Shown here: positions 17,480-40,724 of the stretch, piece after piece
Numbering within the stretch: position 1 is the stretch's first letter
Layout: the number at the start of each line of letters is the position of its first letter
Source of the DNA: an uncultured Candidatus Saccharibacteria bacterium
Lineage (GTDB): Bacteria; Patescibacteriota; Minisyncoccia; Phycocordibacterales; UBA9973
Length of the DNA stretch: 58,184 bases
NCBI GenBank assembly: GCA_964362545.1
Contig: CAYIEM010000002.1
Coordinates: 1-58,184 of the forward strand
Direction: 5' to 3'
The notes under the pieces: model-generated
Told to the model about the DNA's origin: nothing
Seen by the model: only the letters and a program-made list of their open reading frames with translations
Databases searched by the model: none
Position numbers and translations under genes: made by a program

Positions 17480-18913
17480 ATGCAAATCAACCCTTATATT
17501 TTTCGTAATTATGACATCCGCGCACGCGTGCCGGACGAAATTGACACGGCTAAAGTCGAAGCTATCGGCAAATCTTACGGCACTTTCCTGCGCCGCCGCA
17601 AAATTCGCCAGGCTGTGGTCGGTTATGACTGCCGCCTGTCCGGACCAGAATTTCACGCCGCTTATATCAACGGACTCACCTCTACCGGCGTTGATGTTGT
17701 CGATATCGGTATGTGTATGACCCAGATGGTTTATTGGAGCCAATATTATTTTCAAACCAACGGTGCGACCATGATTACCGCCTCGCATAATCCCAAAGAT
17801 TTCAACGGTTTTAAAATCGCCACAGCTTTTTCTCAGACGACCCTACCTCGCGATATAAAAGAGATAAGGGAGGCAGTGGAAAAAGATAAATATTTCGTTG
17901 CGGAGAAAAAAGGCGCGGTCACCGAAGTTGATATTCATGGGGCTTATCAAAAGGACATTCTGAAAAGAGTCGATATTAAAAAGAAATTAAAGGTATTAGT
18001 TGATTTTCGCCATGGCACACCGGCTTTTTTTATTCCGGAAATTTTGCGCGCTGCCGGCTGCGATGTCATTGCAAAAAATGATACGGTGGATGGCAGCTTC
18101 CCCAAAGGCACGCCCGATCCGACCGATGAAGATTACATGCGCGGATTGGGCGAGGAAGTGAAAAAGGGAAATTTTGACGTTGCTTTTTGTTATGATGGCG
18201 ACGGTGATCGCATCGGTCTAGTAGACGAAAAAGGCCGAATTATGTGGAACGATATGATGCTAGCAATTTTTGCGGGAGAGATACTGGAAAGATTCCCAGG
18301 CGGTAAAATTATTTACAACACTCTCTGTTCGCAAGTCGTTCCTTGGGCTATCAAACAAGCCGGCGGAGTACCAATTATGTGGCTTACCGGCCATACTTTC
18401 ATTAAAGATAAGATGATTACGGAAAACGCGGTTTTTGGCGGTGAACTCTCCGGTCATTTCTTTTTCCGGGACAACTTTTACGGTTATGACGATGGCACTT
18501 ACGCGACGTTGCGCGTTCTGGAATATATGTCGGAAAAGAATTTAAAAATGAGCGAAATTTTTGACCGTTACCCTAAATATTATTCTTCTCCGGAGATCAA
18601 AATCGGTTGTCCGGACAGCAAAAAAGTCGAAGTTATAAGGATACTTTCGGAAAAATTCAAGAAGGACTTTCCAAACGGGCGCGTGAGTGACGAACACAAC
18701 ATCCCCGGCAACGATGGCGCCAGGATTGACTTCGACGACGGGATGATGATTTTTCGCTACTCACAGAATGGTCCCTATATTACAGTGAGATTCGAAGCTA
18801 AAGACAAAACAATGTATAACAAGAGAAAAGATTATTCCCGTGAAATTCTGGAATCCTACCCGGAAATGATATGGAAAGACGAGCTTTGCGTTAATCTTGA
18901 TGCGCTAAAATAA
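17480..18913 (+). CDS. Phosphomannomutase/phosphoglucomutase (alpha-D-phosphohexomutase)
   Basis: IFRNYDIRA start, active-site ITASHNPKDFNG, Mg site CYDGDGDRIG, sugar loop GGELSGHFFF. Confidence 0.9.
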   Translation: MQINPYIFRNYDIRARVPDEIDTAKVEAIGKSYGTFLRRRKIRQAVVGYDCRLSGPEFHAAYINGLTSTGVDVVDIGMCMTQMVYWSQYYFQTNGATMITASHNPKDFNGFKIATAFSQTTLPRDIKEIREAVEKDKYFVAEKKGAVTEVDIHGAYQKDILKRVDIKKKLKVLVDFRHGTPAFFIPEILRAAGCDVIAKNDTVDGSFPKGTPDPTDEDYMRGLGEEVKKGNFDVAFCYDGDGDRIGLVDEKGRIMWNDMMLAIFAGEILERFPGGKIIYNTLCSQVVPWAIKQAGGVPIMWLTGHTFIKDKMITENAVFGGELSGHFFFRDNFYGYDDGTYATLRVLEYMSEKNLKMSEIFDRYPKYYSSPEIKIGCPDSKKVEVIRILSEKFKKDFPNGRVSDEHNIPGNDGARIDFDDGMMIFRYSQNGPYITVRFEAKDKTMYNKRKDYSREILESYPEMIWKDELCVNLDALK

Positions 18914-18980: not shown

Positions 18981-20405
18981 ATGAAATATAAAGGATGGTC
19001 TACAGTAGTAATAATTGCTTTTGTATTTGTAATAAGCACTAATAATAAATTAGCCACAGCAGCAACTGTACCTTCGCCTGATATTCTATACAGCGACTGG
19101 AAAAGTCGTTTTGTTACCTCGTCGGGCGCCAGTGGGTTTTTGCGTGTCCGAGTAACTGAAGATAATGATGTCACTGTTTCAGAAGCCCAAGGATACGGCA
19201 TGCTTCTGTCGGCATATCGGGCTGATAAAAGCACGTTTGACAAACTCCTTTCTTATACCGAAAAATATCTTGATCCCCGCGGCTTGATGCACTGGAAAAT
19301 AGATAAGAACGGGAACGTTGCCGGTCAAAACGCGGCGACCGACGGCGATGAAGATATTGCTTACGCGCTCCTCGTAGCCCACAGCAAGTGGGGCGAACCT
19401 TACGGAGGTAAAGCCAAAATTTATATTAAAAACATTTTTGACTACGAGGTTGAACCCGACACTTACGTTTTAAAACCGGGCGATGTCTGGGGCGGTTCAG
19501 ATATTACAAACCTTTCTTATTGCGCTCCGGCTTTTTATCGCGCCTTCGCCGAATTTACCGGAAACCAGGATTGGTTCAAAGTTATTGACCGCTGTTACGA
19601 CATTCATGAAAAAGCCGAAAATACTGCGACAGGACTTGTGCCCGACTGGACCACAATAGACGGCGGCTCTGCTGTAGGCCTAACCCATAACCCTAACAAA
19701 GACAATTTCTCTTATAACGCGATCCGCGTGCCTTGGCGGCTTTTTATGGACTATAAGTGGTTCGGAGAACCGCGAGCTTACAACAATATTAACCTCATGG
19801 CTAAATTCTTCGCTGGAGAAAATTCTCTTTACAGTGGCTACACCCTCCCCGGATCTCCGACCGTAAATTATTTTGATACCACTTTCGCGGCTGGGATAGC
19901 CACGGCCGCGGCAGGATCCGAAGAAGGTGCTTTTGCGTCAAAAATTCTTGAAAAACTTTCTTCGATGAACCCGTCGAGTTACTATGGCGCTTCTCTTCGA
20001 ACTCTCGCTCTGCTTCTTCTTTCCGGCAATTTCCCGGCAGTTGTTTTGCCTGCGAGTACTGGAAGCTCTGCGCCTTCCCCCTCTCCCGCACCGGAGCCAC
20101 CTCCAGTTGGACAATATGTGATCATTCTTGAAGATCCGAACGACAACCAAGAAATCTCTGGAGAGAAAAAGATAAAAGCTTATATAGACAACATTACGTT
20201 AAAAAACTACACGATGACTTATTCAGTTGACGGATCGAAGGAAGTGCCGATGGCTGACGCAGCCGGTATGTTTAAACAAATAAAAGTACAATTCGACAGC
20301 TGGACATGGAACAAAGCAGGACCTTATAAAGTAACTCTTACGGCTCGCGATCTTTCCGGAAACATCATCGGAACCAAACTTTTTTCACTTTTCGTTAAGC
20401 AATAA
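18981..20405 (+). CDS. Secreted GH8 endoglucanase with Pro/Ser linker and C-terminal Ig-like domain
   Basis: Signal peptide. ATDGDEDIAYALLVAHSKW fits the GH8 signature A-[ST]-D-[AG]-D-x2-[IM]-A-x-[SA]-[LIVM]-[LIVMG]-x-A-x3-[FW]. Linker SSAPSPSPAPEPPP. Confidence 0.8.
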   Translation: MKYKGWSTVVIIAFVFVISTNNKLATAATVPSPDILYSDWKSRFVTSSGASGFLRVRVTEDNDVTVSEAQGYGMLLSAYRADKSTFDKLLSYTEKYLDPRGLMHWKIDKNGNVAGQNAATDGDEDIAYALLVAHSKWGEPYGGKAKIYIKNIFDYEVEPDTYVLKPGDVWGGSDITNLSYCAPAFYRAFAEFTGNQDWFKVIDRCYDIHEKAENTATGLVPDWTTIDGGSAVGLTHNPNKDNFSYNAIRVPWRLFMDYKWFGEPRAYNNINLMAKFFAGENSLYSGYTLPGSPTVNYFDTTFAAGIATAAAGSEEGAFASKILEKLSSMNPSSYYGASLRTLALLLLSGNFPAVVLPASTGSSAPSPSPAPEPPPVGQYVIILEDPNDNQEISGEKKIKAYIDNITLKNYTMTYSVDGSKEVPMADAAGMFKQIKVQFDSWTWNKAGPYKVTLTARDLSGNIIGTKLFSLFVKQ

Positions 20406-20448: not shown

Positions 20449-20859
20449 TCAGGAATTTTTGATTCTTTCCCGCAACTCAGTAGTGGAATAGGAGTGGTTT
20501 CGGTTGTTGTAGTAGATTTTTATGGGTAAATCGTGACCGGTAAATTTTTTACCTTTCCAGTCGGCTCCGATTATGCGTATGTCAGGTTTCAGTTCTTTCA
20601 AGATGTTATACAAATCATCTTCTGTTCTGTAGATAATAATTTCATCCACATACCGGTTTGCTTTTAGCTGGATGTATCTTTCCTCCAGTGTCTGAATGGG
20701 TGTACTTTTCTTCTTTCCTCTGTACTCCAAAGGGGCTACGCTCGGATCATCATGAAGCCCCACAATAAGCCAGTCGCATTGTTTCTTGGCTTCTTCCAGC
20801 ATCAAACAATGCCCCGCATGGAGCAAATCGAAGGCCGAAAAAGTGATTCCTTTTATCAT
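20449..20859 (-). CDS. Cytidylyltransferase, TagD-like (glycerol-3-phosphate cytidylyltransferase family)
   Basis: FSAFDLLHAGH (HxGH) and C-terminal HSYSTTELRERI (RTxGISTT-like). 136 aa. Confidence 0.75.
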   Translation of the reverse strand: MIKGITFSAFDLLHAGHCLMLEEAKKQCDWLIVGLHDDPSVAPLEYRGKKKSTPIQTLEERYIQLKANRYVDEIIIYRTEDDLYNILKELKPDIRIIGADWKGKKFTGHDLPIKIYYNNRNHSYSTTELRERIKNS

Positions 20860-20973: not shown

Positions 20974-22656
20974 TCATTCCACGTCAGGAATTAATGCAGG
21001 AATTAGCAACTTATCTCCTATCTCTATCCGGTGCGGGTTAATAATATTGTTCGCCTCCACTATAACGTCATACTTTTTGGCATTTTTGTAAAATCTCTTG
21101 GCAATTGAGGAGAGATTGTCGCCCCGCACCACTTCATAATATACTTCATATTTTTCTTCCAAATATTCGGCTTGGTACACATGAAGCCACAGGGTCCTTG
21201 AAAATTGACGTTTTTCAAGTTTCCGAAGATTCGAGTCAAAATAATCTTTTACTTCCGTGGCACCCTCCAGGTTATCCGCCATAAAGAGAAAAATTCGCTT
21301 ATGATGCCCTTTCACAATCTCCGCGTCCGCTTCAATCCTCTCCCTTGTAGCGAGAGGAATGGCGCCCTTGCGCTTATCCCAGATGGGCATCGAAGTCACC
21401 TGGGCCATACCCCGGTAATAATATTGAAAAGGATAAACGACATACGGAGGCGCCAAGGCGACTACGTCCCGCGGGGTTACCGTTTCGCTGATGTATCGAG
21501 CGGCTTCGCGGTAGTCTTCTTTGGCCGGGTTTTCGGCGCTCACATACTGGTTTACAAGTGATACCGCGATACCTAGAAACAGGATGAATGCGAATGCCTT
21601 CTTGCCAAATCCGCGCAGTTCGCCGAGCGTCCAGGCGAGAAGTATGTAGTAAAGCGGAGAAACTATAGACAAATACCTGGTAAGATACATCGGTTTTAAA
21701 AGCACGCTCACCCCGAACACGATAATGATCGGAAGCAATATGCCGGCGCACACAAGGATCATTCCTTTCCCCGAATACTTTCTTTTAGAGAGAAAAACAA
21801 ATCCGAGCAGAATTACCGCGGGCCACAGAGCGATAATGGTAGACGTAATGGCGTCTGACTGAAAACCGAAGGTGAATTCAAAGAAGCTCAAGGCAATATT
21901 GAAGGTCGTGGGACGTTCAAGCACTGGAGCGAGCGATCCTGATCCGTATGAATTTAAAAGCTCGTAGGCCCACGGAAAGAATGCCGCCGCCAGAATAACG
22001 GCAACCAGAATAAGCTTTATGAATATTTTTTTCTTTTCCGGAACATTGACGCTGAAATTACTCTTCCATGTGGTAAAGAAGAAAACTATCTGCGACAAAA
22101 GAACCAGAAAGAAAAAGTAATGGGTATACATTCCGATCAGGTTCACTGCCACGTAACCGGCGTAAGACAGGAAGCGATCGGTTTTCAGAATGCGAAGCAG
22201 AAAGTAGTACGAAAGGGTTGTGACCAGAATAAGAAGCGTGTACATTCTGATTTCCCGGCTATACCACACCCAGAATGGCGAAAGAGCGCCGATTGCCGTG
22301 GCCAGAAGGGCGATTTTTTCTTCAAAAAGCTCTTTCGCCAAAAAAAACAAGGCAAAAAGCGCGAGGACCCCTGGTATCAGCGAAAGAGCTCTCACGGATA
22401 CTTCTCCTGAACCGAAAAAATACATCCAGAAATGAAGCACTGTGTTGTGAAGCGGAAGATGCACGTTTTTCAGCATGTAGGTGGCGATGAAAGATGCCGA
22501 ATGCGAAGCCTGCCAGACGCTCTGTGCCTCGTCGAGGCGCAGGCTTTCCCCTCCCAAGTTCCAAAGCCGTAGAAAAACACCGACCGCTATGATAAGGGCC
22601 ACCAGGACGAACGTTTTCCAAAAATTATTTCTTGAGCTGGGTTCGGTGTTATTCAT
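20974..22656 (-). CDS. GT-C fold glycosyltransferase (family 39, ArnT/PMT-like) fused to a C-terminal LysM domain
   Basis: About 11 TM helices, first-loop LRLDEAQSVW motif, C-terminal YEVVRGDNLSSIAKRFY...IEIGDKLLIP (LysM). Its start overlaps the upstream stop in ATGAATAA. Confidence 0.8.
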   Translation of the reverse strand: MNNTEPSSRNNFWKTFVLVALIIAVGVFLRLWNLGGESLRLDEAQSVWQASHSASFIATYMLKNVHLPLHNTVLHFWMYFFGSGEVSVRALSLIPGVLALFALFFLAKELFEEKIALLATAIGALSPFWVWYSREIRMYTLLILVTTLSYYFLLRILKTDRFLSYAGYVAVNLIGMYTHYFFFLVLLSQIVFFFTTWKSNFSVNVPEKKKIFIKLILVAVILAAAFFPWAYELLNSYGSGSLAPVLERPTTFNIALSFFEFTFGFQSDAITSTIIALWPAVILLGFVFLSKRKYSGKGMILVCAGILLPIIIVFGVSVLLKPMYLTRYLSIVSPLYYILLAWTLGELRGFGKKAFAFILFLGIAVSLVNQYVSAENPAKEDYREAARYISETVTPRDVVALAPPYVVYPFQYYYRGMAQVTSMPIWDKRKGAIPLATRERIEADAEIVKGHHKRIFLFMADNLEGATEVKDYFDSNLRKLEKRQFSRTLWLHVYQAEYLEEKYEVYYEVVRGDNLSSIAKRFYKNAKKYDVIVEANNIINPHRIEIGDKLLIPALIPDVE

Positions 22657-24298
22657 GTCGCGTGTCTTTATTTTCCGGATTAAGCACCTCTCTTTCGATC
22701 ACGCCCAGCACAGCGGCCGTTTTCGGACGGAGCAGGGGTGCTTTCATAGAGAGAGTGTCCGAACGGAACCATGTTTTTATTCTCTCCGGTATCGCGCGCC
22801 ACGGATAAGCGACGCGGATAAAACCGAAAAAGAAAACAATATTAAAAACTATCCAGGCGCTGTTTGTCATCACGGAAGGCGTGAGCCCGTAGGTATAAAC
22901 GGCATAGACGATAGCGCAAATAGAGATAACAGCGTAGATGATGTTGGGCAGGGCGTACATGATATAGTTCCCGGCCTGTACAGTTTTTGGAGTAATGTTC
23001 CAGCTATCTTTCACTCCCGTCATGGCCGAGATGGTCGCGCGAAAAAAGACAAAGAAAGAACTCATGGACATCTGAATCGCCCGGAAAGTTATTTCGAACT
23101 TGGTCGAACGCATCAAAAGATAAATAGTCGAGAAAATGAAGGGGAAAAAATAAGCCATGAAATCGTGCGTGTTTTCCCTGATCGGAGAAATATTCGTCGT
23201 AATGACGACGATGGGAATGACGGCATCCACGAGCGCCACAAGCCCATTTAAGTAATAGCTCGAAGAATACAGATAGTGGATTTTCTGAGCAAAGGTAAGC
23301 CCCTTGCGGAAAAATGGATTATAGTGGAAAATCACATCGAGACAGCCTCTTGCCCACCGATACTGCTGTTTCGCGAAAGAGCCGAGATCAAGAGGCGCCA
23401 TTCCCTCCGAAAGCACTTCGGGAACATACACAGACTCATATCCTTTCCCGTGAAGCAAGAGAGAAACCAAAAAATCTTCCGTAATCGAATCGGTCGGAAT
23501 GCCTCCAACCATTTCAAGAGCGCTCCTTCTAAGCACGGCATTGGTCCCGCACCAGAAAGTCGCGTTATCAGAGTTCTTTCCTCGACAAATCGGGCCAAAA
23601 AAAAGCTCCTGCTGTTCCCAGGCCGCCTCAGTGAGATAATTTTCCTCGTGATTTGCGTAATACTGGGGTGTCTGTACCAAAGCCATTTTTTCGTTCTCGA
23701 AATACCCCATAGTGCGCGCCAAAAATTCCGGATAAGGCGCCTGGTCTGTGTCGAAAAGAGCGAAAAACGGCGCGTCTGTATGCTTTAGGGCATTGTTGAT
23801 ATTGCCCGCCTTCGCCCCGCCCGGAATATCACGGGTTATCACCGAAACGCCGAGCCTCTTTCCGAGATTTTCTACTTCCCGCCAGTTTTCTTTTTTAGCC
23901 ACAAACCCGTCGTTTAAAACGAACACCTGAAAATCAGGATACTCCATCGCTTTAGCCGCCAAAATAGTTTTTTCTGTAACCTTTAACGGCTCTCCGCAGG
24001 CTGTGATGAAAACGTCCACTCGCGGAGCATACGATCCGAGCATTTTCGGCTGGTAGGGCTTTTGATTACGGACCGTGAAAAGGTACCCGACCGCTTGCCA
24101 AACGTGATAGACTTCTCCGGCAAAGAGAAGTGAAAAAAGGATCCAGGAAGAAGCGTTCGAGAAATCCAGCCACCATCTCGCGTAAATTATCGTAAGGAAA
24201 AGACAAGTTATTATTAATATTTTTGGAACGATTTCGCCGGGCAGTATGAAAGGACGCTTCGGAGCCAGAGAGGCCAGAGAAGAAAAAGGAGTGTTCAT
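22649..24298 (-). CDS. Processive family-2 beta-glycosyltransferase, cellulose synthase (BcsA)-like, without a PilZ domain
   Basis: VDVFITACGEP, VLNDG, KAGNINNAL, FDTDQ, VQTPQYY, FWCGTNAVLRR, ITEDF and QQYRWARG run parallel to the BcsA D,D,D,QxxRW motif set. 549 aa; the C-terminal tail has no RxxxR/DxSxxG. Confidence 0.8.
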   Translation of the reverse strand: MNTPFSSLASLAPKRPFILPGEIVPKILIITCLFLTIIYARWWLDFSNASSWILFSLLFAGEVYHVWQAVGYLFTVRNQKPYQPKMLGSYAPRVDVFITACGEPLKVTEKTILAAKAMEYPDFQVFVLNDGFVAKKENWREVENLGKRLGVSVITRDIPGGAKAGNINNALKHTDAPFFALFDTDQAPYPEFLARTMGYFENEKMALVQTPQYYANHEENYLTEAAWEQQELFFGPICRGKNSDNATFWCGTNAVLRRSALEMVGGIPTDSITEDFLVSLLLHGKGYESVYVPEVLSEGMAPLDLGSFAKQQYRWARGCLDVIFHYNPFFRKGLTFAQKIHYLYSSSYYLNGLVALVDAVIPIVVITTNISPIRENTHDFMAYFFPFIFSTIYLLMRSTKFEITFRAIQMSMSSFFVFFRATISAMTGVKDSWNITPKTVQAGNYIMYALPNIIYAVISICAIVYAVYTYGLTPSVMTNSAWIVFNIVFFFGFIRVAYPWRAIPERIKTWFRSDTLSMKAPLLRPKTAAVLGVIEREVLNPENKDTRHE

Positions 24299-24300
24299 GT

Positions 24301-25494
24301 TTATTCTAACTTACTTAGGTCTAGTAATCGTCCCGCATGAAAGGCCAGCCCAAACCATACCCAGTTCTGGGCGTAATAGCCGAGCGGTTTTGAAAAGTCT
24401 TCTATGTCCGGATCATAAAGAGGCGCGAGCTTACCCGCGAATATCTCCTTGGCGAGATCGGGGCGCTTGATTTTGAAATAAGGGTAAGTTGCAGCATACA
24501 TACTGGAGCTTTCGTCCTCACGTGCGGGTAGTCCGTCATGTGTGTAAGCGCTGAAGAGTATCCCTCTCTTCTCCCACTCTAAAGCAAGAAACCCGAGAGT
24601 GTCTAAATATTTTTCGGCTCTCTCGTCTTTATGCCATACAAAATCAAGCGCGACCCGCCAGGGAACGCGGAAAGCATCGTCTGAGAAATCGGTTGTCTTA
24701 TCCGCGTATGGCGGAGGTGTAGCAGAAAGAGTTTTCCTGTCGAAACTCGCCCAGTCCGGAGGTAGAGAAACGCTTGTTTTTTTATTGAGAGAGGATTCCG
24801 TAACTTTTTGCAGCATTTCATAGGAAGTATTTTTCACCGCCATCCAGTCGTGAATCCTATCCGCTTCCGCGAAGATCGGATAAGCATAAAACATATAATA
24901 GGAGGGATTAATGGAAAGAGAGCCGTCTTCTTTCGCCCAGTTTCCTGCCAGAAGATACGGTTTCCCGCTCACTGTCTGTATTTCCTTGTCCCAGATGTCT
25001 TTGAGTATTTTGATCGCCTGTTCCATATAATGGTCCTGATTCCACCGCTTGGAAGCAAAAATGAGCGCTAGGGCAATATCCTGGTCTGCATCGGAGGCAC
25101 TGTTTATGCCTCCCTCATCCCTAAGCACATCCCATTTTCCTTCCGCGTCTTTTCCCCATTTCCACGCGAATAATTCATCCGGACGCTTGCCTAGGTTGTG
25201 GTTGGTCCACTTGAGCACCTGGTCGAAAACATCCTTCTCGTCCATCCACACTGCCCTAAGGAGCGCGTACGATTGCCCTTCGGATGTGGTGATGTAGTCC
25301 CTATCGCGGTCTATGGTTCGTCCGTCTCTTTGGATTTTGTCTTTGTGTGCTATCCACAAGTTGTCCACCGCAAGGTTGGGATAGGTGTTGATGAACGTAG
25401 AATTATCCGAAATGGCGGAAATCGCCAAAGACGTAAGCAGGTGGCTTACAAGGACAATCGACGATATTATTTTTGTAAAAAATGTCTCTATCAT
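24301..25494 (-). CDS. GH8 endoglucanase (BcsZ-like position)
   Basis: ASDADQDIALALIFASKRW fits the GH8 signature exactly. N-terminal TM/signal segment. Ends 2 nt upstream of the synthase gene. Confidence 0.8.
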   Translation of the reverse strand: MIETFFTKIISSIVLVSHLLTSLAISAISDNSTFINTYPNLAVDNLWIAHKDKIQRDGRTIDRDRDYITTSEGQSYALLRAVWMDEKDVFDQVLKWTNHNLGKRPDELFAWKWGKDAEGKWDVLRDEGGINSASDADQDIALALIFASKRWNQDHYMEQAIKILKDIWDKEIQTVSGKPYLLAGNWAKEDGSLSINPSYYMFYAYPIFAEADRIHDWMAVKNTSYEMLQKVTESSLNKKTSVSLPPDWASFDRKTLSATPPPYADKTTDFSDDAFRVPWRVALDFVWHKDERAEKYLDTLGFLALEWEKRGILFSAYTHDGLPAREDESSSMYAATYPYFKIKRPDLAKEIFAGKLAPLYDPDIEDFSKPLGYYAQNWVWFGLAFHAGRLLDLSKLE

Positions 25495-25500
25495 AATGTT

Positions 25501-26496
25501 TTACGGATTTTCTTTGCTGATAAAAGGCGTCCCATCTAACATAGAGGCAGATCTATCTAAAAGAAAAGATATCCCTCCGAAGAGAAGCGTACCGAGAAGA
25601 GTTGAAATATCTACTGAAAGAGACGCGAGCACAGCGGTTTCCTTGCCGATTCCAGATAGAAGAAGACCCGCTACCCACCCCGCTTCCATAACTCCCAAAC
25701 CCGCTATGTTCGGTATGGTATTCGTGAAAATCTGAACCGCCCCTCCTACTACGATAGCCAAGGGCGGAATATTAAAACCAAACCCTTTCATAAAAAACCC
25801 ATAGGCTAAAAACATCGTTCCCCAAAGCAAAACGGAGTACAGGATGGCTCTTTCGTACACCCGGCACTCTTTGAATTGTCCGAAGGCGTTTACCACTTTC
25901 GTCAAAAACGTCTCCGCTTTGTTTCGAAAGGCGCCAACGGGGATAAGACGGAGTATTTTGCTGCCGAGAAAAAGCGCTAAAGACGGGCGGGTGGAAAGAA
26001 TAAACAACACGCCTACGCCAAAGACTATAACAGTGAAAGATATTAATGTCCACCAGAGCCCTGCTTTGCCCGCTGCTCCAAGGGTGAAAACAAGTCCCGC
26101 TGTCAGAAAGCAGGCCACGATAATAAAATCCAGAGTACGGTTCACAATCACTACGGCGAGGGAATCCGGGTACGGAATGTTACGCCCTTTCATCTGATTC
26201 ATAAACACGAACTCCCCTGCGGGGTTCGGGAGAATTCTAACAGCCATGTTGTGAATACCGGTAAGAATCGCCAGTGTTTTGAAAGAAAGCGCGGAAGGCA
26301 GGAACGCTTTCACCCTAAAAGTCCTCCACGCATAGGTCAAGAAGTACACCGCGGCGCCAAGAGTAAGCCAGAGCGCCGAGATATTTTTTTTCATTTCTCT
26401 AAGCGCTTCCATGTCTATGCCGGAAAGAACCCAAGTAATCAGAACTACTGTAATAACGGATGCAATTATTTTTCTGTTTCTTTGAAGAAAGCGCAT
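25501..26496 (-). CDS. Flippase-like polytopic membrane protein (LPG_synthase_TM / UPF0104 type)
   Basis: 331 aa, about 8 TM helices, N-terminal basic segment, GxxxxP-rich loops typical of the family. The assignment rests on pattern memory only. Confidence 0.6.
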   Translation of the reverse strand: MRFLQRNRKIIASVITVVLITWVLSGIDMEALREMKKNISALWLTLGAAVYFLTYAWRTFRVKAFLPSALSFKTLAILTGIHNMAVRILPNPAGEFVFMNQMKGRNIPYPDSLAVVIVNRTLDFIIVACFLTAGLVFTLGAAGKAGLWWTLISFTVIVFGVGVLFILSTRPSLALFLGSKILRLIPVGAFRNKAETFLTKVVNAFGQFKECRVYERAILYSVLLWGTMFLAYGFFMKGFGFNIPPLAIVVGGAVQIFTNTIPNIAGLGVMEAGWVAGLLLSGIGKETAVLASLSVDISTLLGTLLFGGISFLLDRSASMLDGTPFISKENP

Positions 26497-26521: not shown

Positions 26522-27520
26522 TTATCCGACGATTCTCCGGATTACGTATGTCTTTTTGTTTTGGGATTCAAAATAAATCCTGGAAAGCACTTCTCCCAGT
26601 ATACCCAGAATGACGATCTGGATTCCGGCAAGGATCAGTGATACGGACAAAAGCAAAAGCGGGCGATTCGCGATTTCCTCTCCCCGAAAAATCTTGATAT
26701 AACTTAGATAGCTTCCTATCACAAGCCCGCTTCCCAAAAAGAGAACGCTCAATCCTCCAAAAAACCGGATGGGCTTCGTCAAAAACCGAATAAGGAACTG
26801 TATCACCAGAAGATCAAAAATGACCTTAAAAATCCTGCCCAGCCCATACTTAGATCTGCCAAATTTTCTTTCGTGATGATTCACTTCGATTTCGCCCACC
26901 TTGAAGCCCCCGATACTCGCGAAGGCCGGAAGAAACCTATGCATATCGCCGTAAAGGTGTAGACCTTCGAGCGCCTCCCGGCGGTAAGCTTTCAGGGTAC
27001 ACCCATAGTCGTGCAATCGCACGCCTGTGAGCGCTCCGATCAAGCGGTTGGCAAGTACGGAAGGAATCCGGCGGGTGATGAGCTTATCTTTCCGGTCCTT
27101 CCTCCAGCCGGAAACTACGTCGTACCCCTCTTCTATCTTCGATAAGAGGCGCGGAATGTCCGCCGGATCGTTCTGCAAATCGGCATCCATTGTGATGATT
27201 ATTCCCCCACGGGCAAGATCAAAGCCGGCAGACATAGCGGCCGTTTGTCCGAAATTCCTCCGCAATTCTATTCCCCTGACCCTAGAGTCTTTCTTCTGCA
27301 AGCGCTCAATGACCTTCTGTGTGCCGTCTTCGCTCCCGTCATTGATAAATAATATTTCCGAATTCGCCAGATTGCCGGAGGCTACGGCGGAGATCTTTTC
27401 ATAAAGCAAGGCAAGACTTTCCTCCTCGTCTTTTACCGGAATGACAATAGAAATAATGGGTGGCGCGATCTGCCCACCCGAGTCAGAAGGTATTATTTTT
27501 TTTATTGTGTATTCTTTCAT
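26522..27520 (-). CDS. GT2 polyprenyl-phosphate glycosyltransferase (GtrB/ArnC/DPM1-like) with two C-terminal TM helices
   Basis: ISIVIPVKDEEESL, INDGSEDGT, MDADLQNDP. The track start at 27532 is TTG, so I use the ATG at 27520 (MKEYTIKK). Confidence 0.8.
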   Translation of the reverse strand: MKEYTIKKIIPSDSGGQIAPPIISIVIPVKDEEESLALLYEKISAVASGNLANSEILFINDGSEDGTQKVIERLQKKDSRVRGIELRRNFGQTAAMSAGFDLARGGIIITMDADLQNDPADIPRLLSKIEEGYDVVSGWRKDRKDKLITRRIPSVLANRLIGALTGVRLHDYGCTLKAYRREALEGLHLYGDMHRFLPAFASIGGFKVGEIEVNHHERKFGRSKYGLGRIFKVIFDLLVIQFLIRFLTKPIRFFGGLSVLFLGSGLVIGSYLSYIKIFRGEEIANRPLLLLSVSLILAGIQIVILGILGEVLSRIYFESQNKKTYVIRRIVG

Positions 27521-27634
27521 TCCAAAATCCAATCCAAACTAATAATCCTAAAAACAAAGCCGATTATGTACCTACATTCTTAATAATGTATGGTCTATAA
27601 AATAATATAAAAACAAAAAAAAGTCAATAGCACG

Positions 27635-28375
27635 TTACTTCTCCACATTTATTGTCGCTGGTTTTTTTAGTTTATTGCGTATAGCAAATCCTATAATAAA
27701 CGCCAAAACAAGGATGATAACACCATAGACAATGTTTTTTGAGAGAGGAATTTCGGCGCTTATTGCCGTAGCTAGTTGAGTGTCCGCATCGATAGATGTC
27801 TGGTCGCTTCCTGCAGAACCCCCTGAGGTATTTGTCCCCCTATTGTTTGCTGTATTTTGAGAAGTTGTCGCAGAGAAAATGTTGGTCGACTGTGCTGTGG
27901 ATCTGGTGATGATAATCTGAGAATCATGCAAGGCCCCAGAGAAAGTGTCGCTGTTGGCGCCGTCAAGCACTTGTGTATCCTCATGAAGGACAATATTCGC
28001 AACACCTTCCCCTCTTGCCCTGAAAATAATCGAGCCGAATAATTTGTCCGTCGAAAAACCACCAGGATAGCCGGCAGTTTTCATAATAAAGCCGCTTGTC
28101 ACAACGTCATATCCGGAAACAGGGAGCGTTAGCCATGTCGGAGCAAAGGAGAATGATACGACCTCCAACATGTCGCCTGGATAAGACACGGCTATTCTTG
28201 AGGTGTAAACTTTTTCACCCGAAATAGGGACAACTGTCACAGAAACAGAAAACTGTTCACCCAATCTCACATTTTGGTTTGATGCCGAGAGAGATATGTC
28301 GGTTTCCGCCTCCACAAAAATCGGAGCTAGTGTGAGGGCGAGAAACATAAATAAAGTTAGCGTGATTTTTTTCAT
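27635..28375 (-). CDS. Cohesin-like domain protein with signal peptide and C-terminal TM anchor
   Basis: MKKITLTLFMFLALTLAPIFVEA, then LSASNQNVRLGEQFSVSVTV...IAVSYPGDMLEVVSFSFAPTW...GSIIFRARGEGVANIVL (cohesin-type beta-sandwich pattern). Ser/Thr/Gly/Asn linker, then TM helix VYGVIILVLAFIIGFAI. Uses the ATG at 28375; the track start at 28399 is TTG. Confidence 0.6.
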   Translation of the reverse strand: MKKITLTLFMFLALTLAPIFVEAETDISLSASNQNVRLGEQFSVSVTVVPISGEKVYTSRIAVSYPGDMLEVVSFSFAPTWLTLPVSGYDVVTSGFIMKTAGYPGGFSTDKLFGSIIFRARGEGVANIVLHEDTQVLDGANSDTFSGALHDSQIIITRSTAQSTNIFSATTSQNTANNRGTNTSGGSAGSDQTSIDADTQLATAISAEIPLSKNIVYGVIILVLAFIIGFAIRNKLKKPATINVEK

Positions 28376-28389
28376 ATTTTTATTACGTA

Positions 28390-30615
28390 TTATTTCCAAT
28401 TAACAATTAATAAATTAAAGTCGAATATATCAACAACATTATCGTTGTTAAAATCTGCCGGATTGTTCGGACCGACTTCTCCCCAATGGATGATCAAGGT
28501 ATTAAAATCAAAAATGGTAAAAACTTGGCTCGAGTTAGTATTACTGGTGTTCCTTCTTCTACTGCTTCCACCTCCGCCACCACTACTTCCCCCACTATCC
28601 TCCAATGTAGGGGCAGAAACGATAACCGTTCTAACGATTTCTACTGCCTGATTTAAGGCAGCATCGATTGCGTTATATGTAATTCTATAAGTGCCGACAG
28701 CTCCGGTATTCACTGTGTCTCCGCCGATAGCAACAACTACAGCTCCGTCTATATTGTCAGTAGCGGTAGCGCCTTGTTCGGTATAAGTTTCCCCGGTGTT
28801 TAGATTTATGGTTGCGGAACCAGTAAGTGTGATGATTGGGGGAATAGTATCAGTTGCCGGAGGGACTATAGTTGTAACTTCGACAATAGCATGATCTAAA
28901 CGTTTCACTGCTATGTTGCCTGCAAAGACTTGGCCATTAAGCCAAGACATTTGAGTATCAAAATCAGCCTTGTGCGTGTCAAAAGTATCAAATTCTGCTC
29001 CGGCTGGTATAATTCCGTGATAGACAAGAATCAGCCAAGTTTTATCTTCTTTCGCTTTATTTACCCATTCTTGAAACTGAGATAAGGTGGTTGTCGGTCT
29101 CATGTTTTGAACTCTAAGTCTGTAAACATTTAAATTGTCTCTTGAATTATATCCCTCATCTACTGTCCGATGAGCTCTGTAATAATCATTTATTTGGTCT
29201 ATAACCGCGGCATTGTAATCTCCGAAAGGACTGGAGAAACTAGTTACCGGAGTACCTCCGATTAAATTCTCTAGATATGCTTGCGGCTCTGAAAGCTCGG
29301 CGGCAACTTGCGCGGGAGAAATCTCTGTCAAAAAAGGATGCGTGATGGTGTGAGAACATATCTCGTGTCCGGCATTAAATAATGTATTGACAGAAGCAGG
29401 ACTTTCATCACCCACTATGAGAGGTCTAGTATTGAAACAATGTGTAGTATCAAAATCATAGTTTTCAAGCACTGGCAGAGCGTTGATTATGTTACCCTCT
29501 GTTATGTCATCAAACGTCAAAGTGATAAGAGGTCTGTTGAAACCACTGAATGTGTAAGGAGTAATGTGATAGTCATCCGACTGTATCCATCCATTTTCTC
29601 TAAGAATGAAAAATACCTGCACCCCTACAGAACCCATGGGTACAAAAAATTCACTGGAGTATTCTTGCCAGACTGTCGCACTGCTAGCTCCTGGAAATGG
29701 ATTTGGCAAACCAAAAAAAGTCGCGTTGCCGGCTCCATCTAAAAATCGAGCAACTACGCGAGGAGTGCTTCCTGTGCTTGACTTGTACCAGGCTGTAAAT
29801 CGATAGTCTCCTCCCGGAGTCAGTGGTTGTGGACTAAATACCCAATTTGCATCACCGTCGACGTAGTTTGTGACCGTAAACTTGACGCTTTTAGAACCAG
29901 TGTGTCCATCATTGTTTATATATTCGTAAGTGCGAGTGTTGTTGCCGAATCCGCCACGAAGCCATGCGCGGGGTGTGTCAGGATTGACAGAGATCTCCTC
30001 CAGAGAATTATTGGGAACCAAATCTGTCACACCGACAGATGAAACGGGTACCAAACTCGTATTATCTATTTCCAACCAGCCGTTACTCTCTAAGAGATGA
30101 TAAACAACCAACCATTCTGTAGTATTCAGAGTATGTATTTCAACACCAATTTCCTTCCAGGAACTTGGAGAAGCGGCAACTACCGGGACCCCGTCAGTGT
30201 AAGTAAACTGCGATGGAACAGCGCCATTTCCCTGACCTATCATTATATGCGTCGGCACATTGGATCTATAACTGTTCTTGTAGATGTAGTCGCTGTTCGG
30301 ATTAACTTTTACTATTTCGAAGGCCCATTTAGAATCACCGGAAGTATAATTGCTAATGTCCACTCTTGCTGCTTTACTGCCTACTCCATTAGCCCCCTCC
30401 ACCGGGTAAGTGAAAATCGCAGTATTGTTTTGGTAAGTACTCGTCTCCCAATTGTCTGGTGTCGTGAGAGTTGCGACCTCAAGTGAAGGATTCAAGATGA
30501 GGTTGCCGGGAATTATATCTTCTACCGCAGAAACATCTATCGGGATAATCGAAAAAATCGCAAGTCCGACAAACATTCCTATTTTTATTGAAATCAATTT
30601 TATGTGATTCTTCAT
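28390..30615 (-). CDS. Multidomain secreted polysaccharide deacetylase (CE4): two CBM-like modules, NodB domain, DUF5011/Ig-like domain, C-terminal dockerin
   Basis: NodB-type TLTFDDITEGN and HEICSHTITH. Ig-like PPIITLTGSATINLNTGETYTEQGATATDNIDG. C-terminal NTNSSQVFTIFDFNTLIIHWGE + DFNNDNVVDIFDFNLLIVNWK, which is two dockerin segments (D1,N3,D5,D9,D12 Ca-loop in the second). Start moved to the ATG at 30615 because the GTG at 30681 lies inside the predicted -10 box. Confidence 0.75.
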   Translation of the reverse strand: MKNHIKLISIKIGMFVGLAIFSIIPIDVSAVEDIIPGNLILNPSLEVATLTTPDNWETSTYQNNTAIFTYPVEGANGVGSKAARVDISNYTSGDSKWAFEIVKVNPNSDYIYKNSYRSNVPTHIMIGQGNGAVPSQFTYTDGVPVVAASPSSWKEIGVEIHTLNTTEWLVVYHLLESNGWLEIDNTSLVPVSSVGVTDLVPNNSLEEISVNPDTPRAWLRGGFGNNTRTYEYINNDGHTGSKSVKFTVTNYVDGDANWVFSPQPLTPGGDYRFTAWYKSSTGSTPRVVARFLDGAGNATFFGLPNPFPGASSATVWQEYSSEFFVPMGSVGVQVFFILRENGWIQSDDYHITPYTFSGFNRPLITLTFDDITEGNIINALPVLENYDFDTTHCFNTRPLIVGDESPASVNTLFNAGHEICSHTITHPFLTEISPAQVAAELSEPQAYLENLIGGTPVTSFSSPFGDYNAAVIDQINDYYRAHRTVDEGYNSRDNLNVYRLRVQNMRPTTTLSQFQEWVNKAKEDKTWLILVYHGIIPAGAEFDTFDTHKADFDTQMSWLNGQVFAGNIAVKRLDHAIVEVTTIVPPATDTIPPIITLTGSATINLNTGETYTEQGATATDNIDGAVVVAIGGDTVNTGAVGTYRITYNAIDAALNQAVEIVRTVIVSAPTLEDSGGSSGGGGGSSRRRNTSNTNSSQVFTIFDFNTLIIHWGEVGPNNPADFNNDNVVDIFDFNLLIVNWK

Positions 30616-30671
30616 GCTGAAACTATACCCGTGATTCTTTATATATTGATTTTTTAAGAATTGGTGTTTTG

Positions 30672-38651: not shown

Positions 38652-38657
38652 AATAAG

Positions 38658-40241: not shown

Positions 40242-40246
40242 ATAAC

Positions 40247-40723: not shown

Positions 40724-40724
40724 A

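What the first reader, a model, noticed from the sequence alone, without database searches (positions are those of the whole stretch)
20974..25494. PilZ-less, BcsB-less cellulose-synthase-like enzyme sandwiched between a GH8 glucanase and a GT-C/LysM protein
The 549-aa protein carries the BcsA motif series in order: KAGNINNAL, FDTDQ, VQTPQ, FWCGTNAVLRR, ITEDF, QQYRWARG. It ends about 60 aa after the last TM helix with no PilZ signature (RxxxR...DxSxxG). No BcsB-like gene is nearby. A GH8 gene ends 2 nt upstream of it, and that gene carries an exact GH8 signature (ASDADQDIALALIFASKRW). The synthase stop overlaps the start of a GT-C (ArnT/PMT-like) protein with a C-terminal LysM domain in the sequence ATGAATAA. 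A second GH8 (ATDGDEDIAYALLVAHSKW) with an Ig-like tail lies at 18981..20405. Established knowledge: canonical bacterial cellulose synthase needs BcsB and is gated by c-di-GMP through PilZ. Inference: this is a c-di-GMP-independent beta-glucan synthase variant, and its partner may be the GT-C/LysM protein, which would link the polymer to peptidoglycan.
Basis: partly seen in the sequence, partly recalled or inferred. Interest (0 to 1): 0.7.

Follow-up and report, generated by a model that had tools for sequence, protein, structure and literature searches.

The report
Cellulose-type synthase paired with GT-C enzyme
A groundwater ultra-small bacterium carries a stripped-down cellulose-type synthase that is always encoded next to, and in some relatives fused with, a second membrane sugar-transferase, a pairing found in hundreds of such bacteria and a few culturable actinobacteria but apparently not yet described.

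Summary
The 549-aa protein (22649-24298, minus strand) is the BcsA catalytic and channel core. It has all the motifs and a gating loop, and it has no PilZ domain and no BcsB partner. It lies between a BcsZ-like GH8 gene and a GT-C glycosyltransferase with a LysM tail.

This is not a one-off. The window is from a Hainich groundwater Patescibacteria contig. At least 565 species genomes encode the same short synthase. In 160 related loci, GH8, synthase and GT-C are adjacent wherever the contig allows it to be seen. The GT-C subfamily occurs only beside this synthase. Four protein clusters less than 50% identical to each other are natural synthase::GT-C fusions, so the two enzymes work as one machine.

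About 40% of loci also carry a polyprenyl-phosphate-sugar synthase (GT2) with a GtrA-type or MprF-type flippase candidate. About 40% carry extra GH6 or GH5 cellulases. My best reading is a PilZ-free beta-1,4-glucan synthase whose product is glycosylated or anchored outside the membrane by the GT-C. That step is inferred, not shown.

The LysM tail, and so the proposed peptidoglycan link, is confined to the window's close relatives. The cassette also occurs in culturable Geodermatophilus obscurus. I rate it a new variant of a known kind.

The parts
26522..27532 (-). GT2 of the polyprenyl-phosphate sugar synthase class (ArnC/GtrB/DPM1-like). It is the first gene of the tightly packed run. The deposited gene call starts at the ATG at 27520.
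   Evidence: Pfam Glycos_transf_2 2.9e-32. NCBIfam ArnC model PRK10714 scores 217 bits over its full length, below the cut-off of 529, and PgfS scores 163 bits. The gene is conserved upstream of GH8 in close relatives L008, L084, L089 and L093. A GT2 of this class lies within 3 kb of the trio in 27 of 66 loci with enough flank.
25501..26496 (-). Polytopic membrane protein with the MprF-type flippase domain (LPG_synthase_TM). It is the candidate flippase for the lipid-linked sugar.
   Evidence: Pfam PF03706 1.4e-26. It is conserved with the GT2 in L008, L084, L089 and L093. In other loci its place is taken by a GtrA_DPMS_TM domain, either fused to or next to the GT2.
24301..25494 (-). GH8 endo-beta-1,4-glucanase, BcsZ-like, with an N-terminal signal or anchor sequence.
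   Evidence: Pfam GH8 7e-47. NCBIfam BcsZ scores 146 bits over nearly the full length, below the cut-off of 299. The best PDB relatives are CelA of C. thermocellum (7.6e-26) and BcsZ-type enzymes (about 1e-23); chitosanase reaches only 1e-9. It is adjacent to the synthase in 76 of 80 loci, and the other 4 are cut by contig ends.
22649..24298 (-). BcsA-core processive GT2 synthase, 549 aa. It has 6 TM helices, 3 interface helices, a GT-A domain, a gating loop and a disordered tail of about 50 aa. It has no PilZ.
   Evidence: AlphaFold pLDDT 87.5. Foldseek top hits are BcsA at 1e-30. PilZ is absent in 0 of 30 homologues by Pfam and 0 of 124 by motif.
20974..22656 (-). GT-C fold glycosyltransferase (PMT_2, ArnT-like), 560 aa, with an invariant RLDEAQSxWQ loop after TM1 and a soluble C-terminal domain. 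The LysM domain (aa 505-553, about nt 20998-21144) is a lineage-specific addition.
   Evidence: Pfam PMT_2 7e-14 and LysM 3.2e-09. Invariant D42, E43, H66, E135, R137 and H179. AlphaFold pLDDT 91.6. Foldseek top hit is ArnT 5ezm at 8.5e-10, followed by OST/PglB/ALG/PMT. It is obligately linked to the synthase and fused to it in P0366, P0385, P0394 and P0483.
20449..20859 (-). 136-aa cytidylyltransferase-like nucleotidyltransferase (TagD / RfaE-domain-II-like). It is a possible supplier of an activated donor for the lipid-linked arm. Its role is inferred.
   Evidence: Pfam CTP_transf_like 3.3e-15. NCBIfam hits are below the cut-offs. The same gene follows the synthase::GT-C fusion in L172. It is fused to GT2-GtrA in L048.
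18981..20405 (+). Second GH8, a CelA-type cellulase, with a C-terminal module of about 90 aa that is probably Ig-like.
   Evidence: Pfam GH8 2.5e-63. PDB CelA 2.6e-76. The tail gives only sub-threshold Ig-like hits. The same module sits at the N-end of GH6 proteins beside the cassette in 24 loci.
17480..18913 (+). Phosphoglucomutase/phosphomannomutase, a plausible supplier of hexose-1-phosphate for the nucleotide sugar. The association is weak.
   Evidence: All four PGM_PMM Pfam domains are present. It gave no reportable match in the related loci in the tblastn survey.

Best explanation
The window carries a conserved cell-envelope glycan module of Patescibacteria.

**Core.** The core is one machine of three parts.
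- A minimal BcsA-type synthase: a GT-A domain, a six-helix channel and a gating loop, without the PilZ brake and without the N-terminal helices that dock BcsB. It polymerises a beta-glucan from a UDP-sugar and pushes it through the membrane.
- A BcsZ-like GH8 endoglucanase outside the membrane that trims or releases chains.
- A dedicated GT-C glycosyltransferase that sits beside the synthase, and is fused to it in some lineages. It acts on the outer face.

**Supply arm.** In this window the GT-C is supplied by a classical three-component arm. An ArnC/GtrB-like GT2 loads a sugar onto polyprenyl phosphate. An MprF-type flippase-like protein turns it outward. The GT-C then transfers it.

**Most likely acceptor.** The most likely acceptor is the emerging glucan itself, as a side-chain or end glycosylation. 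This would be analogous to BcsG decorating cellulose, or GacL/GtrC decorating other polymers.

**LysM and regulation.** In the window's lineage a LysM tail holds the GT-C's outer domain on peptidoglycan. Without PilZ the gating loop has no brake, so activity is probably controlled by expression rather than by c-di-GMP.

**Shown here:** domain content, absence of PilZ and BcsB, obligate synteny and the fusions.

**Inferred:** the beta-1,4-glucan product, the lipid-linked donor, the glucan as acceptor, and independence from c-di-GMP.
For: **Synthase identity**
- TIGR03030 2.4e-82 covering only the pre-PilZ part of the model.
- PDB BcsA 7.5e-53, with the alignment ending just before PilZ.
- A confident AlphaFold model with a BcsA fold.
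- Motifs conserved in 116-124 of 124 homologues, and a PilZ motif in 0 of 124.
- PilZ by Pfam in 0 of 30 homologues.

**Coupling to the GT-C**
- 78 of 80 loci found through the synthase have the GT-C adjacent. The other 2 are cut by contig ends.
- Among the loci found through the GT-C, every close member with usable upstream flank has the synthase adjacent. Only distant members (under 150 bits) lack it.
- The gap is 200 nt or less in 120 of 122 loci. Adjacency survives inversion of gene order in 10 loci.
- It also survives transfer into Actinobacteria.
- Four fusion clusters, each less than 50% identical to the others, have an uninterrupted ORF. One of them was recovered in independent assemblies.

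**GT-C is catalytically intact**
- The DE loop and other residues are invariant, and the fold is ArnT-like.

**Lipid-linked donor**
- The window has a GT2 and a flippase-like gene upstream.
- GT2 with a GtrA domain or a GtrA gene is found in about 40% of loci and in all actinobacterial operons examined.
- This logic is established for other glycans (PMC11127046).

**Beta-1,4-glucan product**
- The GH8 is closest to cellulases and BcsZ.
- GH6 or GH5 cellulases lie within 3 kb in 26 of 66 loci.
- The TED motif is kept.
Against: - No biochemical data exist for any member, so product and linkage are unknown. GH8 and GH6 enzymes can also cut mixed-linkage glucans.
- The GT2 and flippase arm is absent from the immediate neighbourhood in about 60% of loci. 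The donor pathway may be encoded elsewhere, or it may differ.
- The GT-C acceptor is not identified. A protein, lipid or peptidoglycan acceptor fits the same data.
- No co-fold of synthase and GT-C could be run.
- A c-di-GMP receptor acting in trans is not excluded; a GGDEF-EAL gene lies 6.5 kb from the Quadrisphaera operon.
- All curated NCBIfam equivalog cut-offs are missed, so no function transfers automatically.
Confidence: 0.6

Rival explanations
1. The GT-C is an anchoring enzyme rather than a decorating one. It attaches the glucan, or a first primer sugar, to an envelope acceptor such as a lipid, protein or peptidoglycan. The polymer then stays on the cell, as with ligases and oligosaccharyltransferases of the same fold.
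For: Foldseek matches OST/PglB/AglB almost as well as ArnT. The window's lineage adds a peptidoglycan-binding LysM. The fusions place the GT-C at the channel exit. The actinobacterial operons add a GT4, a class that elsewhere includes enzymes making glycolipid anchors.
Against: BcsA-type synthases need no lipid primer (established knowledge for BcsA-BcsB). A polyprenyl-phosphate monosaccharide synthase and flippase candidate recur next to the trio, which points to single-sugar transfer. LysM is absent from most members.
Confidence: 0.17
2. The product is not cellulose. It could be another beta-glucan (mixed-linkage 1,3;1,4 or 1,3) or another hexose polymer. In that case the glucanases nearby serve a different purpose, such as attacking host or environmental glucans.
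For: The synthase is equally distant from E. coli BcsA and from S. meliloti BgsA, the mixed-linkage glucan synthase (26-28% identity). Close BcsA relatives can make mixed-linkage glucan (PMC10374906). All curated BcsA cut-offs are missed.
Against: The GH8 is obligately adjacent and is closest to cellulases and BcsZ. GH6 is a family known only for beta-1,4-glucanase and cellobiohydrolase activity (my own knowledge), and it lies within 3 kb of the trio in 22 of 66 loci and in the Geodermatophilus loci (L164-L167).
Confidence: 0.15
3. The GT-C is a general protein O-glycosyltransferase (PMT-like), or a catalytically irrelevant scaffold that merely replaces BcsB. Its adjacency would then reflect shared envelope regulation and not chemistry on the glucan.
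For: Pfam and NCBI name the family PMT_2 / GT39 'mannosyltransferase'. No acceptor has been identified.
Against: The subfamily is found only beside this synthase and is fused to it in four clusters. General protein glycosyltransferases are not distributed in this way. The catalytic loop and several other residues are invariant, which argues against a mere scaffold.
Confidence: 0.08

Closest known systems
BcsA-BcsB cellulose synthase with BcsZ (Rhodobacter sphaeroides, E. coli; PDB 4hg6, 4p00, 7lby, 9b8v)
   Same: The GT2 catalytic core has the D, DxD, TED and QxxRW motifs. The channel-forming TM helices, the interface helices and the FxVTxK gating loop are shared. A GH8 endoglucanase is encoded next door.
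   Different: There is no PilZ domain. There are only two TM helices ahead of the GT domain; by the alignment offset, the first two BcsA helices are missing (inference). No BcsB gene is present. Identity is only 26%. The obligatory partner is a GT-C enzyme.
Streptomyces CslA-GlxA-CslZ cellulose-like glycan system (as reviewed in PMC8892547)
   Same: It is a Gram-positive-type envelope system that pairs a cellulose synthase-like enzyme with an endoglucanase gene and an unusual extracytoplasmic partner that is not BcsB.
   Different: The partner there is a copper radical oxidase (GlxA). No such gene was found in any locus here, and a GT-C takes that position. CslA did not appear among the best 120 relatives of the actinobacterial member, all of which are at least 60% identical. 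I did not compare the sequences directly.
Three-component extracytoplasmic glycosylation systems (GtrA/GtrB/GtrC, CsbB/GtcA/YfhO, GacI/K/L, Citrobacter GT136 system; PMC11127046)
   Same: They combine a polyprenyl-phosphate sugar synthase (GT2), a flippase and a GT-C enzyme that modifies a finished polymer outside the membrane. All three gene types are in the window's operon.
   Different: Known systems modify polymers made on lipid carriers, such as O antigens, teichoic acids and rhamnan. They are not tied to a BcsA-type synthase. Here the GT-C is welded to a synthase-dependent pathway, literally so in the fusion proteins.
BcsG phosphoethanolamine transferase of E. coli-type cellulose systems
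   Same: It is a polytopic membrane enzyme encoded in the synthase cluster. It binds the synthase and decorates the emerging glucan outside the membrane with a lipid-derived group (PMC8892547; PDB 9fmz and 9b8v).
   Different: The fold and the chemistry are unrelated: BcsG is an alkaline-phosphatase-type enzyme that transfers pEtN from phosphatidylethanolamine.
PilZ-less or BcsB-less BcsA relatives: S. meliloti BgsA, Romboutsia RiGT2, plant CesA
   Same: They show that BcsA-type cores can work without BcsB. BgsA and CesA also lack PilZ. RiGT2 keeps a PilZ domain but is active without c-di-GMP (PMC10374906).
   Different: BgsA pairs with an HlyD-type protein and binds c-di-GMP through a long C-terminal region. 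RiGT2 keeps a PilZ domain. None of them has a GT-C partner.

Membership tests
Canonical bacterial cellulose synthase BcsA (NCBIfam TIGR03030 / PRK11498) | GT2 catalytic core with D, DxD, TED and QxxRW, plus membrane channel helices and an FxVTxK gating loop | tested here: met
   Motifs seen in the sequence, aligned to E. coli BcsA, invariant in 30 homologues and present in 116-124 of 124. BcsA fold by Foldseek at 1e-30.
Canonical bacterial cellulose synthase BcsA (NCBIfam TIGR03030 / PRK11498) | C-terminal PilZ domain that binds c-di-GMP | tested here: not met
   The HMM match stops at model position 564 of 714. No PilZ hit at E<=5 in the tail. PilZ found in 0 of 30 homologues. RxxxR...D/NxSxxG found in 0 of 124. 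The tail is disordered and unconserved.
Canonical bacterial cellulose synthase BcsA (NCBIfam TIGR03030 / PRK11498) | Adjacent bcsB gene for the periplasmic co-subunit | tested here: not met
   No BcsB Pfam hit in the window ORFs scanned or in the deposited annotation. No other gene family is conserved across the first 77 loci clustered (81 sources incl. the window). The rest of the genome could not be examined.
Canonical bacterial cellulose synthase BcsA (NCBIfam TIGR03030 / PRK11498) | Score above the curated equivalog cut-off | tested here: not met
   277 bits against a cut-off of 699, and 206 bits against a cut-off of 992.
Canonical bacterial cellulose synthase BcsA (NCBIfam TIGR03030 / PRK11498) | Product is beta-1,4-glucan made from UDP-glucose | not testable with these tools
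   Only contextual support: GH8, GH6 and GH5 cellulases next to the gene.
GT-C fold glycosyltransferases (ArnT/PMT-like, Pfam PMT_2) | Pfam PMT_2 above the gathering score, and a polytopic membrane protein with a GT-C fold | tested here: met
   52.8 bits against a cut-off of 26.1. AlphaFold pLDDT 91.6. Foldseek hits ArnT, OST, PglB, ALG and PMT.
GT-C fold glycosyltransferases (ArnT/PMT-like, Pfam PMT_2) | Acidic catalytic motif in the first extracytoplasmic loop | tested here: met
   R40-L41-D42-E43 directly after TM1. D42 and E43 are invariant in 34 sequences, and the motif is present in 117 of 125 loci.
GT-C fold glycosyltransferases (ArnT/PMT-like, Pfam PMT_2) | Uses a polyprenyl-phosphate-linked sugar donor | not testable with these tools
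   Context only: a GT2 of the polyprenyl-P-sugar synthase class and flippase candidates lie in the operon.
Three-component extracytoplasmic glycosylation system (GtrABC type) | A polyprenyl-phosphate sugar synthase GT2 encoded with the GT-C | tested here: inconclusive
   The window GT2 matches the ArnC model end to end, but at 217 bits against a cut-off of 529. A GT2 of this class is found within 3 kb in 27 of 66 loci.
Three-component extracytoplasmic glycosylation system (GtrABC type) | A dedicated flippase (GtrA family or equivalent) | tested here: inconclusive
   The window has an LPG_synthase_TM (MprF flippase-type) protein rather than GtrA. GtrA_DPMS_TM is fused to or next to the GT2 in other loci. 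Flipping activity is not testable here.
GH8 / BcsZ-type endoglucanase | GH8 domain with the signature region and the catalytic Glu/Asp context | tested here: met
   Pfam 7e-47. SEGQSY and ASDADQDIA are present. PDB cellulases and BcsZ score 1e-23 to 1e-26. The curated BcsZ equivalog cut-off is not reached (146 against 299).
Streptomyces CslA-GlxA-CslZ system | GlxA-type copper radical oxidase partner next to the synthase | tested here: not met
   No such family appears among the conserved neighbours or in the actinobacterial loci.
LysM peptidoglycan-binding domain | Pfam LysM above the gathering score | tested here: met
   37 bits against a cut-off of 20.9, residues 507-553. It is present only in the window's close relatives.

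The most novel reading that the evidence does not exclude
The synthase and the GT-C form a single hybrid machine that joins two pathways so far thought separate: synthase-dependent polymerisation and lipid-linked GT-C glycosylation. It would make a branched or covalently anchored beta-glucan that is a major envelope polymer of Patescibacteria, with the GT-C taking the structural place of BcsB at the channel exit. Because the Saccharimonadales version is shared with Actinobacteria, the phylum that hosts them, the polymer might take part in episymbiont-host contact.
Probability: 0.3. Interest if true: 0.8.

Novelty: new variant of a known kind. Interest (0 to 1): 0.64.

Why it matters
- **Envelope biology of Patescibacteria.** Patescibacteria make up a large share of bacterial diversity, yet their envelope chemistry is almost unknown. 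This module is one of their few widely conserved glycan-building gene sets. It is present in at least 565 species genomes across many of their classes.
- **Cellulose field.** It adds a new answer to how a BcsA core works without BcsB and without c-di-GMP. It is also, as far as I could find, the first case of a synthase-dependent polymer tied to a GT-C enzyme, including natural fusions.
- **Testability.** The same operon sits in culturable Geodermatophilus obscurus, Modestobacter and Quadrisphaera. The chemistry can therefore be tested by genetics and glycan analysis without cultivating an episymbiont.
- **Limit.** If the GT-C only adds a side sugar, the finding is a useful but incremental variant.

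Tried and rejected
- **Cryptic PilZ or other c-di-GMP module in the tail.** Rejected. Pfam finds nothing at E<=5, the tail is about 50 aa, it is disordered in the model and it is unconserved.
- **BcsB analogue among the neighbours.** Clustering all ORFs of the first 81 sources (80 genome loci plus the window) found nothing conserved beyond GH8, synthase and GT-C, followed by GT2, GH6 and GH5.
- **CE4 deacetylase (28390-30681) as a sign of a chitin or chitosan product.** Rejected. It is not conserved in any related locus, and the GH8 is much closer to cellulases than to chitosanases.
- **LysM as a general feature.** Rejected.
- **Promoter and terminator scan of the operon.** Counts were not above the shuffled controls, so it was uninformative.
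- **Profile search of the GT-C against PDB sequences.** No hit at E<=1. Only the fold comparison worked.
- **Apparent long ORFs in L026, L034 and L147.** These are adjacent genes separated by one in-frame stop, not fusions. The true fusions came from the representative search.
- **P0215, a GT2-GT-C fusion.** Its GT2 is DPM1-like, not BcsA-like, and its GT-C is a distant relative. It was not used as evidence for the coupling.
- **Organism labels.** Labels such as 'Gammaproteobacteria', 'Chloroflexi' and 'Verrucomicrobiia' on some MAG contigs were not taken at face value. Several of these are contigs of 0.6-0.8 Mb, a size typical of Patescibacteria genomes.
- **Literature.** Five searches found nothing on cellulose synthase in CPR, Patescibacteria or Saccharibacteria, or on a BcsA-GT-C pairing. 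'Not described' therefore rests on a partial search of open-access papers.

Full report
**1. What is in the window**

On the minus strand six ORFs are packed with gaps of 25, 6 and 2 nt, an 8-nt overlap, and a final gap of 114 nt.

| Coordinates | Product |
|---|---|
| 26522-27532 | GT2 |
| 25501-26496 | Membrane protein |
| 24301-25494 | GH8 |
| 22649-24298 | 549-aa synthase |
| 20974-22656 | 560-aa GT-C/LysM protein |
| 20449-20859 | 136-aa nucleotidyltransferase-like protein |

A phosphoglucomutase (17480-18913) and a second GH8 (18981-20405) lie next to these on the plus strand.

The GH8 stop TAA is followed by two bases and then the synthase ATG. The synthase stop and the GT-C start overlap in ATGAATAA. 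All six synthase motifs and both GH8 signature strings are present as quoted.

An identical synthase is encoded on a 64.6-kb contig from a 0.1-µm filter fraction of Hainich groundwater (ENA ERZ1292627). Its best relatives are from Parcubacteria, WWE3 and Yonathbacteria. The organism is therefore a member of the Patescibacteria (CPR).

**2. The synthase is a BcsA core without PilZ**

- Pfam gives GT2 families and Cellulose_synt.
- The NCBIfam BcsA domain model TIGR03030 matches at 2.4e-82, but only over model positions 59-564 of 714, and far below the curated cut-off (277 against 699 bits). PgaC scores 66 bits and NodC 30 bits.
- Against PDB sequences the protein aligns with E. coli BcsA residues 193-691 and R. 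sphaeroides BcsA residues 53-564. The alignment ends just before the PilZ domain. WNITPK lies on the gating-loop FNVTAK.
- The AlphaFold model is confident (pLDDT 87.5). It shows two TM helices, the GT domain, three interface helices and four more TM helices, then a disordered tail at 517-549.
- Foldseek ranks BcsA structures first (1e-30), then plant CesA, then hyaluronan synthases.
- No PilZ hit appears at E<=5 in the last 110 residues or in any of 30 homologues. The RxxxR...D/NxSxxG pattern is absent from all 124 full-length homologues examined, while CGTN, TED, QxxRW and the gating-loop motif are present in 123-124 of them.
- Only two helices precede the GT domain, where R. sphaeroides BcsA has four (my own knowledge). 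The alignment with that protein begins at its residue 53. I infer from these two points that the first two BcsA helices are missing. A published analysis of another BcsB-less relative notes that an N-terminal BcsA helix pairs with BcsB (PMC10374906).

**3. The partner is an intact GT-C enzyme**

- The 560-aa protein hits PMT_2 and LysM.
- Its AlphaFold model (pLDDT 91.6) is closest to ArnT (8.5e-10), then to oligosaccharyltransferases, ALG and PMT enzymes.
- In an alignment of 34 homologues the loop after TM1 reads RLDEAQSxWQ, with D42 and E43 invariant. H66, E135, R137 and H179 are also invariant. This is the place and type of the GT-C catalytic motif (established knowledge for ArnT, PMT and PglB).
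- The close homologues form a distinct group. About 85 score above 250 bits, and then there is a gap down to about 100 bits.
- Only about 16 of them, all close relatives of the window protein, carry LysM. The rest end at about 500 aa.

**4. Synteny in both directions**

Nearly all were labelled as Patescibacteria classes. In the best 80 loci, tblastn found the GT-C next to the synthase in 78. The other two end at the contig edge. GH8 was found in 76, and the other four are truncated upstream.
- *From the GT-C.* A scan of metagenome contigs with the GT-C profile gave 80 more loci. Every GT-C scoring 230 bits or more with usable upstream sequence sits next to the synthase. Only distant GT-Cs (under 150 bits) stand alone.
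- *All 160 loci together.* 122 show both genes and 104 show the full trio.
  - The order is synthase then GT-C in 112 and the reverse in 10.
  - The two genes are within 200 nt in 120 of 122.
- *Other neighbours.* Clustering all neighbouring ORFs of the first 80 loci and the window found no other near-universal family, and nothing BcsB-like.

**5. Natural fusions**

A search of 1.84 billion representative proteins with the GT-C profile returned four proteins of about 1000 aa whose GT-C part is C-terminal: P0366, P0385, P0394 and P0483.

- Their N-terminal halves are complete synthases with all motifs. Their C-terminal halves carry RLDESQSLWQ or, in P0394 and P0483, a variant of this DE-loop motif.
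- As representatives of 50% clusters, they are less than 50% identical to each other.
- The ORFs are uninterrupted in the DNA. P0366 occurs in four contigs from an NCBI assembly and an independent Logan assembly.
- The linkers contain no W or G that would suggest read-through of TGA.
- The fusion fits the topology. By analogy with BcsA, whose C-terminal PilZ is cytoplasmic, the synthase C-terminus is cytoplasmic, and the GT-C N-terminus is cytoplasmic with a positively charged stretch before TM1.
- I take this as strong evidence that the two enzymes act in one complex.
- The P0366 locus reads GT2, GH8, fusion, cytidylyltransferase-like, GtrA. This is almost the gene content of the window.

**6. 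Accessory genes point to a lipid-linked sugar and to a beta-1,4-glucan**

*The lipid-linked arm*
- The window GT2 matches the ArnC model end to end (217 bits, below the cut-off) and also PgfS.
- The next gene has the MprF-type flippase domain.
- In other loci the GT2 is fused to a GtrA_DPMS_TM domain or lies next to a separate GtrA gene.
- Among 66 loci with a complete trio and at least 3 kb on both sides, a GT2 of this class lies within 3 kb in 27.
- GT2, flippase and GT-C together are the established three-component route for adding sugars to polymers outside the membrane (PMC11127046).

*The glucanases*
- GH6 lies within 3 kb in 22 of the same 66 loci, and GH5 in 4.
- The operon GH8 is closest to C. 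thermocellum CelA and to BcsZ-type enzymes; chitosanases are far behind. The second GH8 is a clear CelA relative (2.6e-76).
- Together with the retained TED motif, this favours a beta-1,4-glucan. It does not prove it.

**7. Culturable relatives and a transfer event**

- The high-GC members belong to Actinobacteria. Geodermatophilus marinus, G. obscurus DSM 43160 (CP001867.1, 233,641-251,275) and Quadrisphaera oryzae carry GtrA, GT2, GT4, GH8, synthase (543-547 aa, no PilZ) and GT-C. In Geodermatophilus a GH6 follows. Modestobacter and Klenkia have the synthase.
- In a neighbour-joining tree of 51 sequences rooted with E. coli BcsA and two BgsA-type proteins, three groupings each have 100/100 bootstrap support. 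These are the PilZ-less clade, the actinobacterial clade, and actinobacteria plus Saccharimonadales.
- The actinobacterial proteins are 60-65% identical to Saccharimonadales proteins and 42% identical to the window protein. This points to horizontal transfer between Saccharibacteria and Actinobacteria.
- The direction is not resolved. The specific nesting inside Saccharimonadales has only 34/100 support. The broad distribution in Patescibacteria favours an origin there.

**8. Mechanism, with what is shown and what is inferred**

*Shown*
- The enzyme is a BcsA-type core without PilZ or BcsB.
- It has an obligate, sometimes fused, catalytically intact GT-C partner.
- It has an obligate GH8.
- A polyprenyl-phosphate sugar arm and extra cellulases are frequent neighbours.

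*Inferred*
- The synthase makes a beta-1,4-glucan from UDP-glucose and exports it.
- With no PilZ to hold the gating loop, it is not gated by c-di-GMP. In BcsA, breaking the PilZ-gating-loop salt bridge activates the enzyme, as summarised in PMC10374906.
- The GT-C transfers a sugar from a flipped polyprenyl-phosphate donor onto the emerging chain. The closest functional analogy is BcsG decorating cellulase-sensitive cellulose in E. coli (PMC8892547).
- Anchoring to an envelope acceptor is the main alternative.
- In the window's lineage, LysM would hold the outer domain on peptidoglycan.

**9. Comparison and novelty**

- The protein fails three defining features of canonical BcsA: PilZ, BcsB and the curated score. 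It should be described as BcsA-like, not as BcsA.
- Other PilZ-less or BcsB-less relatives are known: Streptomyces CslA with GlxA and CslZ, S. meliloti BgsA with an HlyD-type partner, Romboutsia RiGT2 and plant CesA. The absence of PilZ and BcsB alone is therefore not new.
- What I could not find described is the pairing with a GT-C enzyme, or any account of this family in Patescibacteria. Half of my literature searches failed by time-out, so this negative is provisional.
- Databases already name the proteins 'cellulose synthase (UDP-forming)' and 'glycosyltransferase family 39 protein'.
- I rate it a new variant of a known kind.

**10. Limits**

- No multimer prediction was possible.
- No genome-wide check for bcsB or c-di-GMP genes was possible.
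- The neighbourhood surveys cover the 160 best-matching loci, not all relatives.
- Start codons in my ORF calls were taken as the most upstream start, so the counts of overlapping genes are upper bounds.
- The tree is distance-based.

Noticed in passing
L165, L166, L167, L168 (Geodermatophilus marinus, G. obscurus CP001867.1 233641-251275, Quadrisphaera oryzae); proteins P0245-P0307: The same cassette occurs in culturable Actinobacteria, with the order GtrA, GT2, GT4, GH8, synthase, GT-C, and with GH6 in Geodermatophilus. Their synthases form one clade that groups with Saccharimonadales (100/100 bootstraps) at 60-65% identity. This suggests horizontal transfer between Saccharibacteria and the phylum that hosts them.
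   Followed up: partly
window 18981-20405 (aa 386-474 of the second GH8); c4 proteins such as L058:8868-10343: A module of about 90 aa with only sub-threshold Ig-like Pfam hits sits at the C-end of the window's second GH8. The same module sits at the N-end of GH6 cellulases next to the cassette in 24 other loci. It may be a shared surface-anchoring or glucan-binding module.
   Followed up: partly
window 20449-20859; L048:6935-8512; L172:8995-9474: The small cytidylyltransferase-like gene downstream of the GT-C recurs directly after a synthase::GT-C fusion (L172). It is fused to GT2-GtrA in L048. It probably belongs to the lipid-linked sugar arm, but its substrate is unknown; the TagD and RfaE-II models both score below their cut-offs.
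   Followed up: partly
window 33023-34048 and 34173-35198 (+): A second membrane GT2 (Glyco_trans_2_3, 341 aa, with a faint chitin-synthase hit) directly follows a 341-aa protein with a weak GH26 hit. This may be another small synthase and hydrolase pair.
   Followed up: no
window 28390-30681 (-) and 27635-28399 (-): A 763-aa protein has a CE4 polysaccharide deacetylase domain, a surface Ig-like domain and a long N-terminal region with no family hit. It overlaps a 254-aa protein with no family hit, just upstream of the operon. Neither is conserved in related loci.
   Followed up: partly
window 12779-15523 (-), 30862-32700 (-), 15977-16648 (-): Two large secreted proteins have a C-terminal PG_binding_1 domain. 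One has DUF11. The other has PKD domains and a long tract of almost pure D/E/N. There is also a 223-aa glycine-rich protein built of two similar halves (GGAGGNGG repeats).
   Followed up: no
window 35782-41764 (+): A type IV pilus gene set: a T2SSE ATPase, a T2SSF platform protein and three prepilin-like proteins. A 527-aa protein with a weak LVIVD repeat hit lies in between. PBP2-type, FtsW, MurG and MraY-like genes elsewhere in the window show that peptidoglycan synthesis is encoded.
   Followed up: no
L034:10001-12958, L026, L147: In some loci the synthase and the GT-C are in the same reading frame, separated by a single stop codon. This is one mutation away from the fused form seen in P0366, P0385, P0394 and P0483.
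   Followed up: partly
L175 (Logan SRR24079466): One fusion locus reads GH6, GH8, synthase::GT-C, GH113. Two sugar-nucleotidyltransferases and an epimerase/dehydratase-type gene lie upstream. GH113 members characterised so far are beta-mannanases (my own knowledge), which might be a hint about the side-chain sugar.
   Followed up: no
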